Assembly (NCBI GenBank): GCA_028705565.1
Contig: JAQWDH010000001.1
Location: 20,363 to 84,362, forward strand
DNA from: Patescibacteria group bacterium
GTDB lineage: Bacteria > Patescibacteriota > Patescibacteriia > Magasanikbacterales > GWA2-37-8
DNA length: 64,000 bases
Reading direction: 5' to 3'
In this document: one piece after another, positions 45,926 to 50,906 of the stretch
Layout of the letters: each line of letters begins with the position of its first letter
Numbering within the stretch: the first letter of the stretch is position 1
The notes under the pieces: model-generated
The model's input: the letters and a program-made list of their open reading frames with translations, nothing else
The model's database searches: none
Told to the model about the DNA's origin: nothing
Program-made: the position numbers and the translations under genes

Positions 45926-46488
45926 ATCTCTCTTGTCATAAAAATCTCTCTTTTTAGGAGAGCCAAGTCCAAAATAAAATCGCGAAAGCAAGTTTGGACC
46001 TCTGGGTAAAGTCCTTAACGGACGCTTTAATATCAAATAAAAAATGTTACAGATATTAAATATTTACTTAGAGTGTTCAAGCGGCTGACGCCATACTTTT
46101 GGCGAATAGTTTTGAAGGCCGCTGTCAAGCGGTTCTTTATTTTTTAAAAATGATTTTGAACGGAGCAAAAAATTTTCGCGAATGAAAATTTTTTGCCTCG
46201 TTCAAAACGATTGAAAAGAATTGAGCGGGTGTAAGAACTTTGACAATCAATTAGTAAGTTTCAACAAAAAGGGTAGAACTCCCGCGCTGATTTTATTCGC
46301 GCGGGAAAAATAAGAAAGCACAATTTAGTGTTTTCGTAGTATGCAATTTTAACAAGAGCGCATGGCGGATGCCTTGACACCAAAAGACGATGAAGGACGC
46401 TGCAGGGTGCGATAAGCCTCGGAGAGGTCCCAAGCAACCTTTGACCCGGGGATTTCCAAATGGGGAAACCCGCCGGTGCGTAGCACCG

Positions 46489-46600
46489 GAATTTACCAAT
46501 TTACAATTTTCAATTTACAATCAACTCCAATTATCAATAATTTATTGAAAATTGCCGCATTGTAAATTTATTGAAAATAATTGAAAATTCCAGTGTTATG
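46489..46600 (+). other. 23S intervening sequence 1 (AT-rich CAATTT-repeat hairpin in the E. coli helix ~130-150 region)
   Basis: Insertion relative to conserved flanks GGGGAAACCC ... CTGAATACATAGG. Confidence 0.55.
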
Positions 46601-47154
46601 CATCGGCACTGTACACTGAATACATAGGTGTATGGAGAAGACCTGGCGAAGTGAAACATCTCAGTAGCCAGAGGAAAATAAATCTATAGAGATTCCCTTA
46701 GTAGTGGCGAGCGAAAAGGGAAAAGCTTAAACCATATAAGTGTTTCTTTGAGAATGATTGGTCTTAGGATTAGTCTAGTATTAAAGATTAAAGGGATAGG
46801 TCGTTGCTTATATGGGGTTGTAAGATATTGGCGCTGACTGCCTACTCAGTCAGATGATTGAATAACCTTCCTAGTAGAATGCTCTGGAAAGAGCAACCAT
46901 AGAGGGTGATAGTCCCGTACGCGAAAGGAGTTACAAAATCATAGCCGTTATTCTTGAGTAGGACGGAACTCGTGAAATTCCGTCCGAAGCCGGGCCGACT
47001 ATGGTCCAAAGCTAAATACTTTTGGTGATCGATAGTGGACAAGTACCACGAGGGAAAGGTGAAAAGCAGCCCGGAGAGGGCGATGAAATAGTATCTGAAA
47101 CCGTGCGTTTACAAAGAGCGGAAGGTCAACCACATCTCGCTTTGTTTGATGTGG

Positions 47155-47215
47155 AATTTCCAATTTCCAATTTATTTAGTTATTGATTTTTGGAGTTTGG
47201 TAATTCTTACACGTC
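47155..47215 (+). other. 23S intervening sequence 2 (GGAATTTCCAATTTCCAATTT... at the helix-25 region)
   Basis: Insertion at a classical IVS site; same motif family. Confidence 0.5.
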
Positions 47216-47924
47216 AAATGAAGTGAGATGTGGCGACCGACCGTGTTCCTATTGAAGAATGAGCCTGCGAGTGTATGTGTGCCGCTTTGCTTAAGGGCCT
47301 ATGGTCCGGAGGCGTAGCGAAAGCGAGTCTTAACGGGCGTATACCTTGTATCTTTATGGTGCGAGGTTTGTGGCACGTATATAACCCGAAACCGGGTGAG
47401 CTATCCATGACCAGGATGAACCCCGCCGAAAGGCGGGGGGAGGTCCGAACCCACGCGCCGTGCAACACGCGGGGATGAGTTGTGGATGGGAGAGAAATTC
47501 TAATCGAACTCGGTGATAGCTGGTTCTCCTCGAAATAGCTGTAGGGCTAGCCTCAAATGTTTCTATCGGTGGTAGAGCACTGGATGAAAATCGGGTCCTT
47601 CGGGATACCATTTTCAATCAAACTCCGAATACCGGTAGCCAAAATTTGGGAGTCAGACAGTGACGGCTAAGCGCCATTGTCAAAAGGGAAACAGCCCAGA
47701 TCGCAAGCTAAGGCCCCTAAATCCATGTTAAGTGTAACAAAGGTGGTTCTAGTTCTCATACAACCAGGAGGTTGGCTTAGAAGCAGCCATCCTTTAAAGA
47801 AAGCGTAACAGCTCACTGGTCAAGAGTTTTAGCGCCGAAAATGTACGGGACTCAAACATGGTGCCGAAGCTGCGGACTATCCGTGCTTCACTAATGTTCA
47901 GCACAAATTTTCAAGTATCCTGCC

Positions 47925-48045
47925 TACCGGCAGGTAATTATCAATTTTCAATCAATTATCCAATTATCAATTTTTAAATTTCATTTTGGGTCATTAAAAT
48001 TTATTGAAAATTGTAAATTGTAAATTTTGTGGCGAGCGTTAGCGA
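47925..48045 (+). other. 23S intervening sequence 3 (helix-45 region, ~E. coli 1170)
   Basis: AT-rich CAATTATC/CAATTTT repeat hairpin between conserved blocks. Confidence 0.5.
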
Positions 48046-48552
48046 GGCACGGGTATTGGTAGAGGAGCGTTCCTAACTGCGCAGAAGTCCTAGGCGTGAG
48101 CCGGGATGGAGTGTTAGGAAGCGAGAATGCAGGCATAAGTAGCAAAAAGGCAGGTGAGAATCCTGCCCGCCGAAAACCCAAGGTTTCCTGGGCAACGAGA
48201 ATCGACCCAGGGTTAGCCGATCCTAAGGCCAGCCCGTCGCAAGGCGGGGTAACCGATGGAAGAGCTGGTTAATATTCCAGCGCTATATGCAGTTTGGTTT
48301 TTACTGCGCATCTTTAATTTTTAAGCGTGTTTTGGTTATACGCGCGCCGCAAGGCGGAGACAAAGCCCTCGGGTGGAGTCAACTTAAAATAACAAGGTGC
48401 CTAGAAAAGGTAAAAATCGTTAAGCTGCATGTAATCGTACCGTAAACCGACACAGGTGGGTAAGTCGAGTAGACTAAGGCGTATGAGAGAACCCTCGTTA
48501 AGGAACTCTGCAATACAGCGGCCGTAACTTCGGGATAAGGCCTGTCCGACCG

Positions 48553-48692
48553 TGCCTCACTGCGTTTGACGCGGAATGACCAATATAATTTTCAATTACC
48601 AATTTTCAATTTAAGAGTCCGACCGAGTCGGACACAATAGTTGATCATTGGAAATTGGAATTTGGAAATTCCGCCCGAGCATAGCGAGGTGC
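48553..48692 (+). other. 23S intervening sequence 4, a ~140-bp element (copy A)
   Basis: CCTCACTGCGTTTGACGCGGAATGACCAAT...GTCCGACCGAGTCGGAC...GGAAATTCCGCCCGAGCATAGCGAGGTGCGG. Confidence 0.6.
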
Positions 48693-48817
48693 GGTTGGAT
48701 TACAACAAAAGACCTCAAGCGACTGTTTACCAAAAACACAGCTCCCTGCAAAAGCGTAAGCTGAAGTATAGGGGGTGATGCCTGGCCAGTGTCAGAACGT
48801 TAAAGAGAGAGGTGAGC

Positions 48818-48957
48818 CGTACCTCACTGCGTTTGGTACGGAATGACCAATTTTCAATTACCAATTTTCAATTTAAGAGTCCGGTCGAGCCGGACACAAT
48901 AATTGATCATTGGAAATTGGAATTTGGAAATTCCGCCCGAGCATAGCGAGGTGCGGC
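48818..48957 (+). other. 23S intervening sequence 5, a near-identical second copy (copy B) of the 140-bp element in a different helix
   Basis: About 95% identical to copy A; separated by genuine 23S sequence (GACTGTTTACCAAAAACACAG). Confidence 0.6.
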
Positions 48958-49569
48958 GTAGCCTTGAACTGAAGCGCTGATGAACGCCGGCGGTAACTAT
49001 AACCGTCCTAAGGTAGCGCAATTCCTTGTCGGGTGAGTTCCGACGCGCATGAATGGTATAACGATTTGAGGACTGTCTCAACGAGGGACTCAGTGAAATT
49101 GCAAGGAAGGTGAAGATGCCTTCTACCCGCAACTAGACGAAAAGACCCCGTGAAGCTTTACTACAACTTGGCATTGGTATAAGGTTAAATATGTTCAGAG
49201 TAGGTGGAATCCCGACTTAGTCGGGAGACAATGAGACACCACCCTTACTTAATTTTATGCCTAATCTTCCGACTTGAATCAGCCGGAGGAGACAGTGTCT
49301 GGTGGGTAGTTTAACTGGGGCGGTTGCCTCCTAAAATGTAACGGAGGCGTTTACAAAGGTCAGCTTAGCTCGGATGGAAATCGAGCTGGACGTGCAAACG
49401 CAAAAGCTGGCTTTACTGCAAGGGCTACAACCCGAGCAGTCGCGAAAGCGGAAGTTAGTGAACCGACCATCCTATATAGGAAGGTGGAAGATCAACGGAT
49501 AAAAGCTACTCCGGGGATAACAGGCTGATCTAGCCCGATAGTCCACATAGACGGCTAGGTTTGGCACCT

Positions 49570-50420
49570 TAATACATCGGGGTGCTGCAGTAGTGATACT
49601 GCACCAAAAATTCGGCTTATAACGGTGAACCCGTCATTAAATGTATGGTATAATTAAAATAATAATCCATTTAATCGGCAACACCGTGGGAAGTCTTAAT
49701 CAAACACAAAAATCAATACTTATCGGAAGTCTCTTGGGAGATGGAAATTTGAGATTGGCAGAAGGAAAAACAAATGCTTTGTTTGAAGTAAATCATTCAA
49801 TCAAACAAAAATTGTATGTTGATTGGAAATATAATCAATTACGCCCATTCATTTTAACGGCTCCGAAAGCGAGAAGTTGTAATGGAAAACGAATTGCTTA
49901 TCGGTTTACGACACGCAGTTTGCCTGTATTTACTTCGCTCTACAGGGAATTCTACAGGGATAGTATAAAAGTAATTCCTTGTAATCTCACATTGACACCA
50001 TTAGCGCTCGCGGTATGGTTTATGGACGATGGCAGTAAAAGCCGTTCATCTATTTATCTAAACACGCAGCAATTCAACATTGAAGAACAAATTCGTTTGC
50101 TTCAATTATTGAAAAAGCAATTTAACTTGTCAGGCGCGCTAAATAAGGACAAGAAGTATTTTCGTATAAGAATAACATCGTCAAGCACAGCGCTATTTAA
50201 AGAAATAGTGCGGCCGTATGTTATAAAAATTTTTAATTATAAACTTGATTAATGACCCCGTAACGACTGACCCGAAAGGGGAGGTTCCGACCTTTTATGT
50301 CGGAACAACACGCCGACGCTTGTTTTACAAAAACCGAGATTATGCCGTTTAAGTCGGCTACGATCCGGAACAAGCAGAAGATATAGTCTACCCCATGAGA
50401 AATCATGGAATAATCGACAG
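49570..50420 (+). mobile_element. Group-I-type intron in the 23S rRNA (inserted after GGCACCT, near E. coli position ~2449) encoding a LAGLIDADG homing endonuclease
   Basis: Exon sequence GGCACCT | ... | CGATGTCGGCTCATC is interrupted by 851 bp containing the ORF; intron ends in G. Confidence 0.75.
49641..50252 (+). CDS. LAGLIDADG-family homing endonuclease (intron-encoded)
   Basis: Two LAGLIDADG-like motifs ([11 protein letters not shown] and [10 protein letters not shown]). Confidence 0.75.
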
Positions 50421-50906
50421 CGATGTCGGCTCATCGCATCCTGGGGCTGAAGAAGGTCCCAAGGGTTTGGCTGTTCGCCAATTAAAGCGGTACGCGAGCT
50501 GGGTTCAGAACGTCGTGAGACAGTTCGGTCTCCTATCTGTTGCGGGCGTTGAACATTGAGAAGACTCACTCCTAGTACGAGAGGACCGGAGCGGACGAAC
50601 CTCTAGTGTACCAGTTGTCCTACCAAGGGCATTGCTGGGTAGCTACGTTCGGCACGGATAAACGCTGAAAGCATCTAAGCGTGAAGCCGTCTTCAAGATT
50701 AATGTTCGTCATAGACTCCTTGTAGACTACAAGGTTGATAGGCGCTATGTGTAAGTTTAGTAATAAACTGAGCAGAGGCGTACTAATAAGTCAAGCATAC
50801 TACGAAAGCGCTAAGCGGTGCTTTTTGCACCCTTTTAAGTCCGCCCTGTCTGCCGACAGGCAGGCTTTGGCGGAAAGCCATTATAAAACAAAATTGAGTA
50901 TGAAGT

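What the first reader, a model, noticed from the sequence alone, without database searches (positions are those of the whole stretch)
46347..50796. 23S rRNA gene carrying five or more hairpin intervening sequences from one CAATTT-rich family
The 23S gene is ~4.45 kb. Conserved 23S blocks are interrupted at five or more helices by AT-rich hairpin insertions built from CAATTT(T)CAATT/GGAAATTGG motifs, at 46489-46600, 47155-47215, 47925-48045, 48553-48692 and 48818-48957. This implies a fragmented or heavily processed 23S, as is typical of CPR-like lineages. Neither 16S nor spacer tRNAs are nearby, so the rRNA genes appear unlinked. The identical 140-bp pair is reported separately.
Basis: partly seen in the sequence, partly recalled or inferred. 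Interest (0 to 1): 0.6.

Follow-up and report, generated by a model that had tools for sequence, protein, structure and literature searches.

The report
Five related hairpin inserts in 23S
The large-subunit ribosomal RNA gene of this uncultured Magasanikbacteria (CPR) genome carries five long, related hairpin insertions at the tips of five surface helices plus one self-splicing intron; such inserts are common in this group, but these share a conserved base module also found in rRNA genes of many other uncultured bacteria, which gives a handle on how such inserts arise and spread.

Summary
The 23S gene (46342-50806, 4465 nt) consists of a 2917-nt core, five hairpin insertions (697 nt) and an 851-nt group I intron with a LAGLIDADG gene, which this finding does not mention. 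The hairpins replace the apical loops of helices 9, 25, 45, 63 and 68, fold as near-perfect rods (z -8.6 to -10.8), and are absent from most or all of 12-28 related Magasanikbacteria 23S genes. That sporadic distribution is typical of bacterial intervening sequences (IVS), not of conserved expansion segments. A sixth extra block (46727-46871) is conserved across the lineage and is not part of the family. All five share the CAATTT-type repeat interior. Four share a basal duplex module (CTCACTGCGTTYG / GAGCATAGCGAG between covarying stems); H9 has a different base. The same module turned up in 20 other rRNA genes from metagenomes (16S and 23S, several helices, always in sense orientation) and in a widespread non-rRNA palindrome family. 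The H68 copy is a recent duplicate of the H63 copy (91% identical). Excision by RNase III, giving a six-piece 23S, is the likeliest fate but could not be tested. I class it as a new variant of a known kind, of moderate interest.

The parts
46342..50806 (+). 23S rRNA gene, 4465 nt: a 2917-nt core, five hairpin inserts (697 nt) and an 851-nt intron.
   Evidence: Rfam RF02541, 2209 bits, full model; blastn to E. coli rrlH.
46472..46607 (+). Hairpin insert in the helix 9 loop (136 nt). It has the type-2 base CCGGTGC-GTA-GCACCGG...GCATCGG and a CAATTT-repeat interior.
   Evidence: CM alignment shows 120 nt in place of 4. Fold -51.9 kcal/mol, z -8.6. All 28 relatives have 22-33 nt here.
47130..47233 (+). 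Hairpin insert in the helix 25 loop (104 nt). Base is CCACATCTCGCTTTGTTTGATGTGGAAT...GTGAGATGTGG, a diverged L1/L2 module.
   Evidence: CM alignment. Fold -53.2 kcal/mol, z -10.1. 14 of 18 relatives have 11-27 nt. L025 and L108 carry inserts with the same base at H25.
47881..48052 (+). Hairpin insert in helix 45 (172 nt). It has a diverged module (CCGTGCTTCACTAATGTTCAGCAC...GAGCGTTAGCGAGGCACGG) and a nested GC hairpin at 47919-47934.
   Evidence: Ec1163/1186. Fold -70.9 kcal/mol, z -8.6. 9 of 12 relatives have 20-30 nt.
48550..48694 (+). Hairpin insert in the helix 63 loop (145 nt), with the canonical module CCGTGC-CTCACTGCGTTTG-ACGCGGAATGACC...ATTCCGCC-CGAGCATAGCGAG-GTGCGG.
   Evidence: CM alignment shows 132 nt in place of 3. 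Fold -64.9 kcal/mol, z -9.0. 10 of 13 relatives have 20-24 nt. L007 and L187 carry the same base at H63.
48817..48956 (+). Hairpin insert in the helix 68 loop (140 nt). It is a recent duplicate of the H63 insert, with compensatory changes.
   Evidence: CM alignment shows 138 nt in place of 4. Fold -76.1 kcal/mol, z -10.8. 91% identical to 48550-48694. All 12 relatives have 19-38 nt.
46727..46871 (+). Lineage-conserved expansion (about 120 nt more than E. coli 268-292). Not part of the hairpin family.
   Evidence: 140-148 nt in all 25 relatives. No CAATTT motif. Weak fold, z -3.1.
49570..50420 (+). Group I intron between E. coli positions 2500 and 2501, carrying a LAGLIDADG_2 homing-endonuclease ORF at 49641-50252.
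   Evidence: blastn break at Ec2500/2501. Pfam PF03161, 2.9e-45. Rfam Intron_gpI 26.4 bits, E 1.8e-4, below the gathering score. Absent from 9 relatives; about 355-nt ORF-less inserts at the same site in L007 and L014.
46315..46344 (+). 5' arm of the 23S processing stem. It pairs with 50795-50824.
   Evidence: Inverted repeat I2, 30 nt, 83% complementary.
50795..50824 (+). 3' arm of the 23S processing stem.
   Evidence: Inverted repeat I2.
51025..51131 (+). 5S rRNA gene.
   Evidence: Rfam RF00001, 78 bits.

Best explanation
The five segments are intervening sequences (IVS) of one modular hairpin family. Each has replaced the small apical loop of a solvent-exposed 23S helix (H9, H25, H45, H63, H68). 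Each has two parts:
- A basal duplex of about 30 bp. Covarying stems a:d and b:c flank a sequence-conserved core, L1 CUCACUGCGUUYG paired with L2 CGAGCAUAGCGAG, followed by GGAAU/AUUCC. H9 has a shorter type-2 base instead.
- A fast-evolving AT-rich rod made of 7-nt tandem repeats mirrored on the two arms, which can lengthen or shorten by slippage.

The family spreads between helices. The H68 copy is a recent duplicate of the H63 copy. The family also occurs in 16S and 23S genes of other uncultured bacteria.

Inferred fate: the inserts are transcribed within the pre-23S RNA. The basal duplex is then cut by RNase III without religation, the AT-rich rod is degraded, and the intron splices out. 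The mature 23S would be six pieces of about 130, 522, 647, 497, 122 and 999 nt, held together by base pairing and ribosomal proteins.

Shown here: location, fold, family relations, sporadic distribution and covariation. Inferred: cleavage, the enzyme, and the way new copies are made.
For: - The inserts sit exactly in hairpin loops of the LSU covariance model.
- They form near-perfect rods, z -8.6 to -10.8.
- They are absent at the same sites in most or all related Magasanikbacteria 23S genes, where small (often GCAA-type) loops are found instead.
- The accounting is exact: 2917 core + 697 + 851 = 4465 nt.
- The basal module is shared by window H63/H68, L007 H63, L025 H25 and L034 H25, all found by synteny and not by pattern.
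- The module is also in 20 rRNA-borne metagenome copies at H25, H45, H63, Ec223-422, about Ec2200 and beyond Ec2782 of 23S, and at two 16S sites.
- Outside the positions fixed by the search pattern, the rod pairs in 80% of cells against 31-44% when slid, with 18 pairs changed on both sides and 0 of 500 shuffles reaching the score.
- G.U pairs and the sense orientation of 20 of 20 copies show selection at the RNA level.
- Interiors are AT-rich (GC 0.23) and unrelated between organisms, while the bases are conserved. That is what a discarded spacer with a conserved processing site would look like.
- A 30-nt processing stem brackets the 23S, and RNase III homologues exist in related Patescibacteria loci L069 and L062.
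- Known IVS at H9, H25 and H45 replace tetraloops and are cut by RNase III in the middle of a stem of about 28 bp (PMC4990558; PMC8708148).
- Short non-intron inserts at IVS sites are common in CPR 23S genes (PMC11270868).
Against: - There are no RNA data, so cleavage is inferred only by analogy.
- No RNase III gene lies in this 64-kb window, and whether this genome has one is unknown.
- According to the IVS literature read here (PMC4990558), the common IVS sites are H9, H25 and H45, so H63 and H68 are not classical sites.
- The near-invariance of L1/L2 in the metagenome set is partly forced by the search pattern.
- Segment a is also complementary to b (73% paired, with covariation). A simple rod does not explain that.
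Confidence: 0.6

Rival explanations
1. The five hairpins are retained expansion segments. They are not cleaved, stay in the mature ribosome as rigid double-stranded rods on the surface, and the 23S remains one molecule after intron splicing.
For: By my recollection, four of the sites (H9, H25, H45, H63) coincide with sites of eukaryotic expansion segments. An E. coli 23S carrying an unprocessed Salmonella IVS is functional (Gregory et al. 1996, cited in PMC8708148). No RNase III gene was seen in the window.
Against: The hairpins are absent from nearly all close relatives, and their interiors are unrelated between organisms. By contrast, the truly retained lineage expansion at 46727-46871 keeps its length in all 25 relatives. 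Perfect duplexes of 40-70 bp are RNase III substrates wherever that enzyme is present.
Confidence: 0.25
2. The hairpins are selfish DNA palindromes: an rRNA-adapted branch of a widespread palindromic element that moves at the DNA level, possibly with small GIY-YIG nucleases. Their conserved base would then be the element's recognition site for that machinery, not an RNA-processing signal. This concerns their origin and is compatible with later excision from the RNA.
For: About 40 of 100 non-rRNA metagenome hits share the consensus AGATTC-CTCACTTCGTTCG-GAATGACA...TGTCATTC-CGAACGAAGTGAG-GAATCT. The window's H63 and H68 copies contain GGAATGAC immediately after the module. A generic copy lies at window 2708-2803. 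Seven of the 100 non-rRNA loci have a small GIY-YIG gene beside the hairpin. GIY-YIG ORFs occur in non-intron rRNA inserts of CPR bacteria (PMC11270868; also the L109 16S). H63 and H68 are intragenic duplicates. Each arm is itself hairpin-capable through a:b pairing.
Against: There is no copy of the CAATTT-type element outside the 23S in the other roughly 60 kb of the window. Neither H63 nor H68 has a target-site duplication. No GIY-YIG gene is present in the window. The G.U pattern and strict sense orientation point to RNA-level selection. The link to GIY-YIG is only adjacency in 7% of a pattern-biased sample.
Confidence: 0.3
3. The hairpins are assembly or amplification artefacts, that is, chimeric inverted repeats introduced into the rRNA gene.
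For: Short-read assemblies of the same organism break at the edges of this 23S (L003, L205, L206).
Against: The inserts sit precisely in helix loops, in sense orientation, with G.U-type asymmetry and compensatory changes between copies. Homologous inserts occur in many independent assemblies.
Confidence: 0.03

Closest known systems
Bacterial 23S rRNA intervening sequences (Salmonella, Yersinia, Campylobacter, Leptospira, Coxiella, alpha-proteobacteria)
   Same: An extended stem-loop replaces the small loop of H9, H25 or H45. Distribution among close relatives is sporadic. The insert is AT-rich relative to the rRNA. A basal stem of about 28-30 bp is where RNase III cuts in Coxiella (PMC4990558; PMC8708148).
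   Different: There are five inserts in one gene, including H63 and H68, which the IVS literature read here (PMC4990558) does not list among the common sites. None carries an ORF. The inserts share a conserved basal module and tandem-repeat interiors, and the same module also occurs in 16S genes. Excision was not shown here.
Short non-intron 'insertion sequences' in CPR rRNA genes (Tsurumaki et al. 2024, PMC11270868)
   Same: The same group of organisms. That study found 82% of CPR 23S genes with inserts of 100 bp or more and up to 16 per gene. It found many short inserts with no ORF and no intron features at the classical IVS sites and called them 'probably IVS'. LAGLIDADG group I introns are common in the same genes.
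   Different: In the main text I read, that study classed these inserts only by length and position. It reported no sequence family, basal module, duplication between helices or link to non-rRNA palindromes.
rRNA expansion segments (eukaryotes, Asgard archaea, some bacteria)
   Same: By my recollection the permissive surface helices are the same: H9, H25, H45 and H63 here, and H79 and H98 among the metagenome copies.
   Different: Expansion segments are retained and conserved within a lineage. These hairpins are not conserved even among close relatives. The conserved block at 46727-46871 is the expansion-segment-like feature of this gene.
REP/MITE-like palindromic repeats
   Same: The form is palindromic, the end motif is conserved, and the non-rRNA relatives have many dispersed copies, some in tandem arrays (L202).
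   Different: The rRNA-borne copies are not dispersed in this genome's 64 kb, have no target-site duplication, and show RNA-level constraints. No transposase link was found. The only recurrent neighbour is a small GIY-YIG nuclease gene.

Membership tests
Bacterial 23S rRNA intervening sequence (IVS) | Extra sequence replaces the apical loop of a 23S helix without disturbing the conserved core. | tested here: met
   CM alignments show the inserts in the loops of H9, H25, H63 and H68. H45 is placed by blastn and by comparison with relatives.
Bacterial 23S rRNA intervening sequence (IVS) | The insert folds as an extended stem-loop closed by complementary termini. | tested here: met
   dG -52 to -76 kcal/mol, z -8.6 to -10.8. 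Covariation in the closing stem.
Bacterial 23S rRNA intervening sequence (IVS) | Sporadic presence among close relatives. | tested here: met
   Site-length table for 12-28 Magasanikbacteria relatives.
Bacterial 23S rRNA intervening sequence (IVS) | Excised from the precursor by RNase III without religation, giving a fragmented 23S. | not testable with these tools
   No RNA data are available. RNase III homologues are present in related loci L069 and L062 but were not seen in the window.
Group I intron | Catalytic core (P3-P9) and insertion in a conserved, functionally important rRNA sequence. | tested here: not met
   For the five hairpins: no Rfam intron match, only chance-level hits at E above 2, and they sit in variable loops. 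The separate 851-nt insert at Ec2500 does fit this family.
Lineage-conserved rRNA expansion segment | Present with similar length and sequence in related organisms. | tested here: not met
   The five hairpins are absent in most or all relatives. Only 46727-46871 meets this feature, at 140-148 nt in all 25 relatives.
MITE/REP-like mobile palindrome | Multiple dispersed copies in the same genome. | tested here: not met
   No copy of any of the five outside the 23S in the window. There is one generic palindrome with a related L motif at 2708-2803. Only 64 kb of the genome could be examined.
MITE/REP-like mobile palindrome | Target-site duplication flanking the insert. | tested here: not met
   The flanks are GTCCGA|...|TTGGAT at H63 and GGTGAG|...|CGTAGC at H68, which are not direct repeats (sequence).
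ORF-bearing IVS (23S_rRNA_IVP or GIY-YIG type) | An ORF within the stem-bounded insert. | tested here: not met
   The inserts are 104-172 nt with no ORF. A GIY-YIG ORF in a stem-bounded 16S insert was seen in L109 only.

The most novel reading that the evidence does not exclude
The hairpins belong to a previously undescribed modular element that colonises the loop tips of surface helices in both 16S and 23S rRNA across many uncultured (probably CPR) bacteria. The element has a pseudo-symmetric duplex module of about 30 bp with a conserved core, in which each arm can also fold on itself, joined to a slippage-prone tandem-repeat rod. It would be an rRNA-adapted offshoot of a very widespread palindrome family associated with GIY-YIG nuclease genes. 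That would give bacterial IVSs a concrete origin and way of spreading. In this organism it would produce a 23S in six pieces, which to my knowledge would be the most fragmented bacterial 23S reported.
Probability: 0.3. Interest if true: 0.75.

Novelty: new variant of a known kind. Interest (0 to 1): 0.5.

Why it matters
Where bacterial rRNA intervening sequences come from, and how they spread, has been open since 1990; 'remnants of transposition' is still a hypothesis (PMC4990558). This gene shows three things together:
- A recent duplication of an IVS from one helix to another.
- A basal module conserved across helices, across the two rRNA genes and across organisms, while everything else in the insert turns over.
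- A sequence link from that module to non-rRNA palindromes that sometimes sit beside GIY-YIG nuclease genes.

This makes the question testable: does RNase III, or another enzyme, recognise the module, and does the module move as DNA? Practically, five inserts plus an intron add about 1.5 kb to the gene. They break short-read assemblies at this locus and will confuse rRNA-based binning and length filters for CPR genomes. If all five are excised, the ribosome works with a six-piece 23S.

Tried and rejected
- A global MAFFT alignment to a first E. coli 23S copy (L001) gave misleading coordinates, because that copy is 2860 nt and I took 44 nt too many. I redid the mapping with K-12 rrlH.
- I looked for copies of the five hairpins elsewhere in the window by blastn-short. 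There are none above chance. The CAATTT hits at 29218 and 29422 are unrelated coding or intergenic sequence.
- Exact-protein look-ups for the LAGLIDADG protein and PNPase found nothing.
- Look-ups for the two genes flanking the rRNA found only short contigs that end at the edges of the 23S. No strain-level comparison of the inserts was therefore possible.
- I searched the held loci for module pairs with shorter or longer spacing, hoping to find ORF-bearing versions. None turned up.
- Literature searches for the module sequence found nothing relevant.
- A blastn of the generic palindrome against plasmids found nothing useful.
- Rfam at a permissive threshold gives only chance hairpin hits for the H63 insert.
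- Local pairing of c with d is not supported, at 37.5% paired.
- The GIY-YIG insert in the L109 16S lacks the L1/L2 module, so a direct ORF-module link inside rRNA was not found.
- I rejected the assembly-artefact reading and the reading that all extra sequence is lineage-conserved expansion.

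
Full report
**Anatomy of the gene.** Rfam's bacterial LSU model matches window 46342-50806 over its full length (2209 bits). A 5S gene follows at 51025-51131. The window contains no 16S, and its six tRNA genes are all far from the rRNA. I numbered the gene against E. coli K-12 rrlH (L002). Conserved blocks are interrupted at these positions:
- Ec130/156
- Ec267/293
- Ec539/670
- Ec1163/1186
- Ec1704/1770
- Ec1854/1873
- Ec2500/2501

Covariance-model alignments show that four of the breaks are insertions exactly in apical hairpin loops: 120 nt in place of 4 in H9, about 99 nt in H25, 132 in place of 3 in H63, and 138 in place of 4 in H68. 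H45 is placed by blastn and by comparison with relatives. With refined bounds the accounting is exact: a core of 2917 nt, five hairpins of 136, 104, 172, 145 and 140 nt, and an 851-nt insert at Ec2500, which sum to 4465 nt.

Each of the five segments folds as a long, nearly perfect hairpin (dG -52 to -76 kcal/mol, z -8.6 to -10.8, no shuffle as stable). The motif CAATTTTCAATT with at most one mismatch occurs 19 times in the window against 3.9 expected, and 14 of the hits lie in the five hairpins. The motif forms 7-nt tandem repeats on the 5' arms (CAATTTN), mirrored on the 3' arms (NAAATTG). No copy of any of the five exists elsewhere in the window.

The H63 and H68 copies are 91% identical over 145 nt, or 96% over the 108-nt core, not identical. 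More than half of the excess length is a group I intron. It lies between Ec2500 and 2501 and carries a LAGLIDADG_2 ORF (Pfam 2.9e-45). It also gives a full-length but sub-threshold Intron_gpI match at 26.4 bits, E 1.8e-4.

**Organism and relatives.** The PNPase gene 6 kb upstream found 80 loci in GTDB species genomes. The best are 70-81% identical and are titled Candidatus Magasanikbacteria / Magasanikiibacteriota or Patescibacteria group, so this is a CPR bacterium. Some records carry evidently wrong automatic titles. PNPase-to-23S synteny is conserved, which gave 28 related 23S genes, some of them partial. None of the 80 loci has a 16S, so the unlinked arrangement is typical of the lineage.

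**Test of 'ordinary conserved expansion segment'.** I measured the distance between conserved anchors at each site:

| Site | This gene | Relatives |
|---|---|---|
| H9 | 143 nt | 22-33 nt in all 28 |
| H68 | 162 nt | 19-38 nt in all 12 |
| H25 | 114 nt | 11-27 nt in 14 of 18; inserts in L025, L030, L032, L053 |
| H45 | 182 nt | 20-30 nt in 9 of 12; inserts in L017, L036, L032 |
| H63 | 161 nt | 20-24 nt in 10 of 13; inserts in L007, L015, L036 |
| 46727-46871 | 145 nt | 140-148 nt in all 25 |

Where relatives lack an insert they have small hairpins, often with GCAA-type loops. So the five hairpins show the sporadic distribution that defines intervening sequences. The block at 46727-46871 is a conserved lineage expansion that lacks the motif and is not part of the family.

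**A shared basal module.**
- The L007 H63 insert and the L025 H25 insert have interiors unrelated to CAATTT (TTATAAAG and GAAGTAA repeats). Their bases, however, match the window's: CC[xxxx]-CTCAYTGCRTTYG-[x'x'x'x']GGAAT ... ATTCC..-CGAGCRYAGCGAG-[..]GG.
- The window's H63 and H68 copies carry this module in canonical form. H25 and H45 carry diverged versions, for example GAGCGTTAGCGAGGCACGG in H45.
- H9 has a shorter 'type-2' base (CCGGTGC-GTA-GCACCGG...GCATCGG). It resembles the bases of the H25 inserts in L030, L032 and L053.
- 'One family' is therefore right for the interiors of all five and for the bases of four.
- Bases tend to be specific to the site: CCACATCTC...GAGATGTGG at H25 in the window, L025 and L108, and CCGYGCCTCAC...GAGGTGCGG at H63 in the window, L007 and L187.
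- The apex of L108's H25 insert matches the apex of the window's H63 and H68 inserts, so the elements are mosaics.

- Twenty loci lie in rRNA genes. Seventeen are in 23S: at H25, H45, H63, within Ec223-422, near Ec2200 and beyond Ec2782. Three are in 16S: Ec70-243 and Ec453-794.
- Every one of these is in sense orientation and has an AT-rich interior (GC 0.23) made of short tandem repeats that differ between organisms.
- Their 23S flanks are 68-83% identical to the window's, so they come from diverse organisms whose taxonomy I could not determine.
- None sits at H68, and no relative has an insert there. Together with the 91% identity, this makes the H68 copy a recent intragenic duplicate of the H63 copy.

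**Covariation in the module.** I aligned 23 distinct rRNA-borne copies on the module (A2).
- The rod structure pairs in 80% of cells against 31-44% for slid controls. Eighteen pairs change on both sides, and 0 of 500 shuffles reach the covariation score.
- The informative columns are the a:d stem. It lies outside the search pattern and varies, for example CG 13 / UA 8, and AU 11 / GC 7 / GU 3 / UA 2.
- The near-invariance of L1 and L2 in this set is partly forced by the pattern. It is independently seen in the copies found by synteny (window, L007, L025, L034). At the degenerate pattern positions one base still dominates.
- Two A.C oppositions and two G.U pairs recur in L1:L2.
- Segment a is also complementary to b, giving a local hairpin with L1 as the loop (73% paired, with covariation). 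The c:d pairing is not supported.
- Between the window's two copies, a G-to-A change in a is matched by changes in b that give a perfect 7-bp a:b helix.

These are two mutually exclusive pairings that both look maintained. I cannot explain this. It could reflect a folding intermediate or a DNA-level hairpin.

**Link to non-rRNA palindromes.** The other 100 loci are not in rRNA genes.
- About 40 of the 100 share the consensus AGATTC-CTCACTTCGTTCG-GAATGACA ... TGTCATTC-CGAACGAAGTGAG-GAATCT, with GC-rich inner hairpins. The shared parts outside the search pattern show this is a real family.
- The window's H63 and H68 inserts contain GGAATGAC right after the module.
- The window itself has a generic relative at 2708-2803: an intergenic 34-bp perfect stem with arms GTCATCCCGAATGAAATGAGGGATCTC, z -16. 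L034 has another just upstream of its 23S.
- In 7 of the 100 loci a small GIY-YIG nuclease gene (Pfam PF01541) lies within about 200 nt of the hairpin. In L157 hairpins flank the gene on both sides.
- One 16S gene (L109) carries a GIY-YIG ORF inside a stem-bounded insert, but without this module.
- Tsurumaki et al. report that GIY-YIG ORFs in CPR rRNA inserts lie in non-intron inserts (PMC11270868).

This is a lead to an origin at the DNA level, not a demonstration.

**Mechanism.** Known IVSs replace the tetraloops of H9, H25 and H45 with extended stem-loops. RNase III cuts them without religation, in Coxiella in the middle of a 28-bp terminal stem, and the fragmented 23S remains functional (PMC4990558; PMC8708148). 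The features here fit that picture:
- a conserved basal duplex of about 30 bp beneath a rapidly changing interior;
- sporadic distribution among relatives;
- a processing stem bracketing the 23S;
- RNase III homologues in related Patescibacteria loci.

I therefore think excision is the most likely fate (about 0.6). It would give six pieces of about 130, 522, 647, 497, 122 and 999 nt after intron splicing. Retention as surface rods is the main rival (about 0.25). Only RNA data can decide.

**Comparison with what is known.** Multiple inserts in CPR 23S genes are already documented: 82% of genes carry them, with up to 16 per gene. Short non-intron inserts at classical IVS sites were called 'probably IVS' (PMC11270868). 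At that level the finding is ordinary for the lineage.

Several features appear in none of the papers I could search or read:
- the conserved basal module;
- its occurrence across helices and in both rRNA genes;
- the tandem-repeat interiors, which are uniform within one gene but differ between organisms;
- the H63-to-H68 duplication;
- the sequence link to a widespread non-rRNA palindrome.

Searches for the module sequence found nothing relevant, and Rfam has no matching family.

**Verdict.** I class this as a new variant of a known kind and score interest at 0.5.

Noticed in passing
window 49570-50420: An 851-nt group I intron between E. coli 23S positions 2500 and 2501, with a single-domain LAGLIDADG_2 ORF (49641-50252, 203 aa). 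Relatives L007 and L014 have ORF-less inserts of about 355 nt at the same site; nine others have none.
   Followed up: partly
window 50865-50961 and 50982-51078: An exact 97-nt direct repeat (period 117) duplicates about 40 nt of spacer plus the first 57 nt or so of the 5S. A truncated 5S pseudo-copy therefore precedes the real 5S gene. It could be a real tandem duplication or an assembly slip.
   Followed up: no
window 2708-2803: An intergenic palindrome with a 34-bp perfect stem (dG -73.8 kcal/mol, z -16). Its arms (GTCATCCCGAATGAAATGAGGGATCTC) belong to the widespread generic palindrome family that shares the L motif with the rRNA inserts. A similar one sits just upstream of the 23S in L034 (14612-14672).
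   Followed up: partly
metagenome loci L096, L157, L160, L176, L181, L195, L203: Small GIY-YIG nuclease genes (Pfam PF01541, about 90-120 aa) lie within about 200 nt of generic L1/L2 palindromes. In L157 the gene has a hairpin on each side. L202 holds a tandem array of the module.
   Followed up: partly
L109 about 660-960 (16S rRNA, minus strand): A GIY-YIG ORF lies inside a stem-bounded insert (CCCACACCTTTTGGCTTTT...AAAAAGCCAAAAGGTGTGGG) between 16S E. coli positions 439 and 506. The same 16S also carries an L1/L2 hairpin insert between positions 66 and 243.
   Followed up: partly
window 40784-45736: A low-GC (0.32-0.35) block of about 5 kb sits between PNPase/tRNA-Leu and the 23S. It encodes glycosyltransferase, HAD-hydrolase, NDK-like and NUDIX genes plus one gene with no known family. 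In relatives the PNPase-to-23S spacer varies from 1.4 to 7.8 kb, so this looks like a variable island.
   Followed up: no
window 46727-46871: About 120 nt more than E. coli 268-292. The length is conserved (140-148 nt) in all 25 Magasanikbacteria relatives, so this is a lineage-specific expansion segment unrelated to the hairpin family.
   Followed up: yes
window 47919-47934: A small GC-rich hairpin (CCTGCCTACCGGCAGG) is nested in the 5' arm of the H45 insert. A loosely similar GC hairpin lies downstream of the 23S, near 50845-50865.
   Followed up: no
L017 15118-15284, L036 15026-15180, L032 14631-14760; L015 and L036 H63: Related Magasanikbacteria carry other, unrelated hairpin-insert families at H45 (130-167 nt) and H63 (85 nt) that lack the L1/L2 module. 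Several IVS families therefore circulate in this lineage.
   Followed up: partly
L003, L205 (Logan SRR22315502), L206 (JGI 3300037067): Contigs from other assemblies encode proteins identical to the window's genes on either side of the rRNA. They stop at the edges of the 23S/5S, so short-read assemblies break at this insert-rich gene.
   Followed up: no
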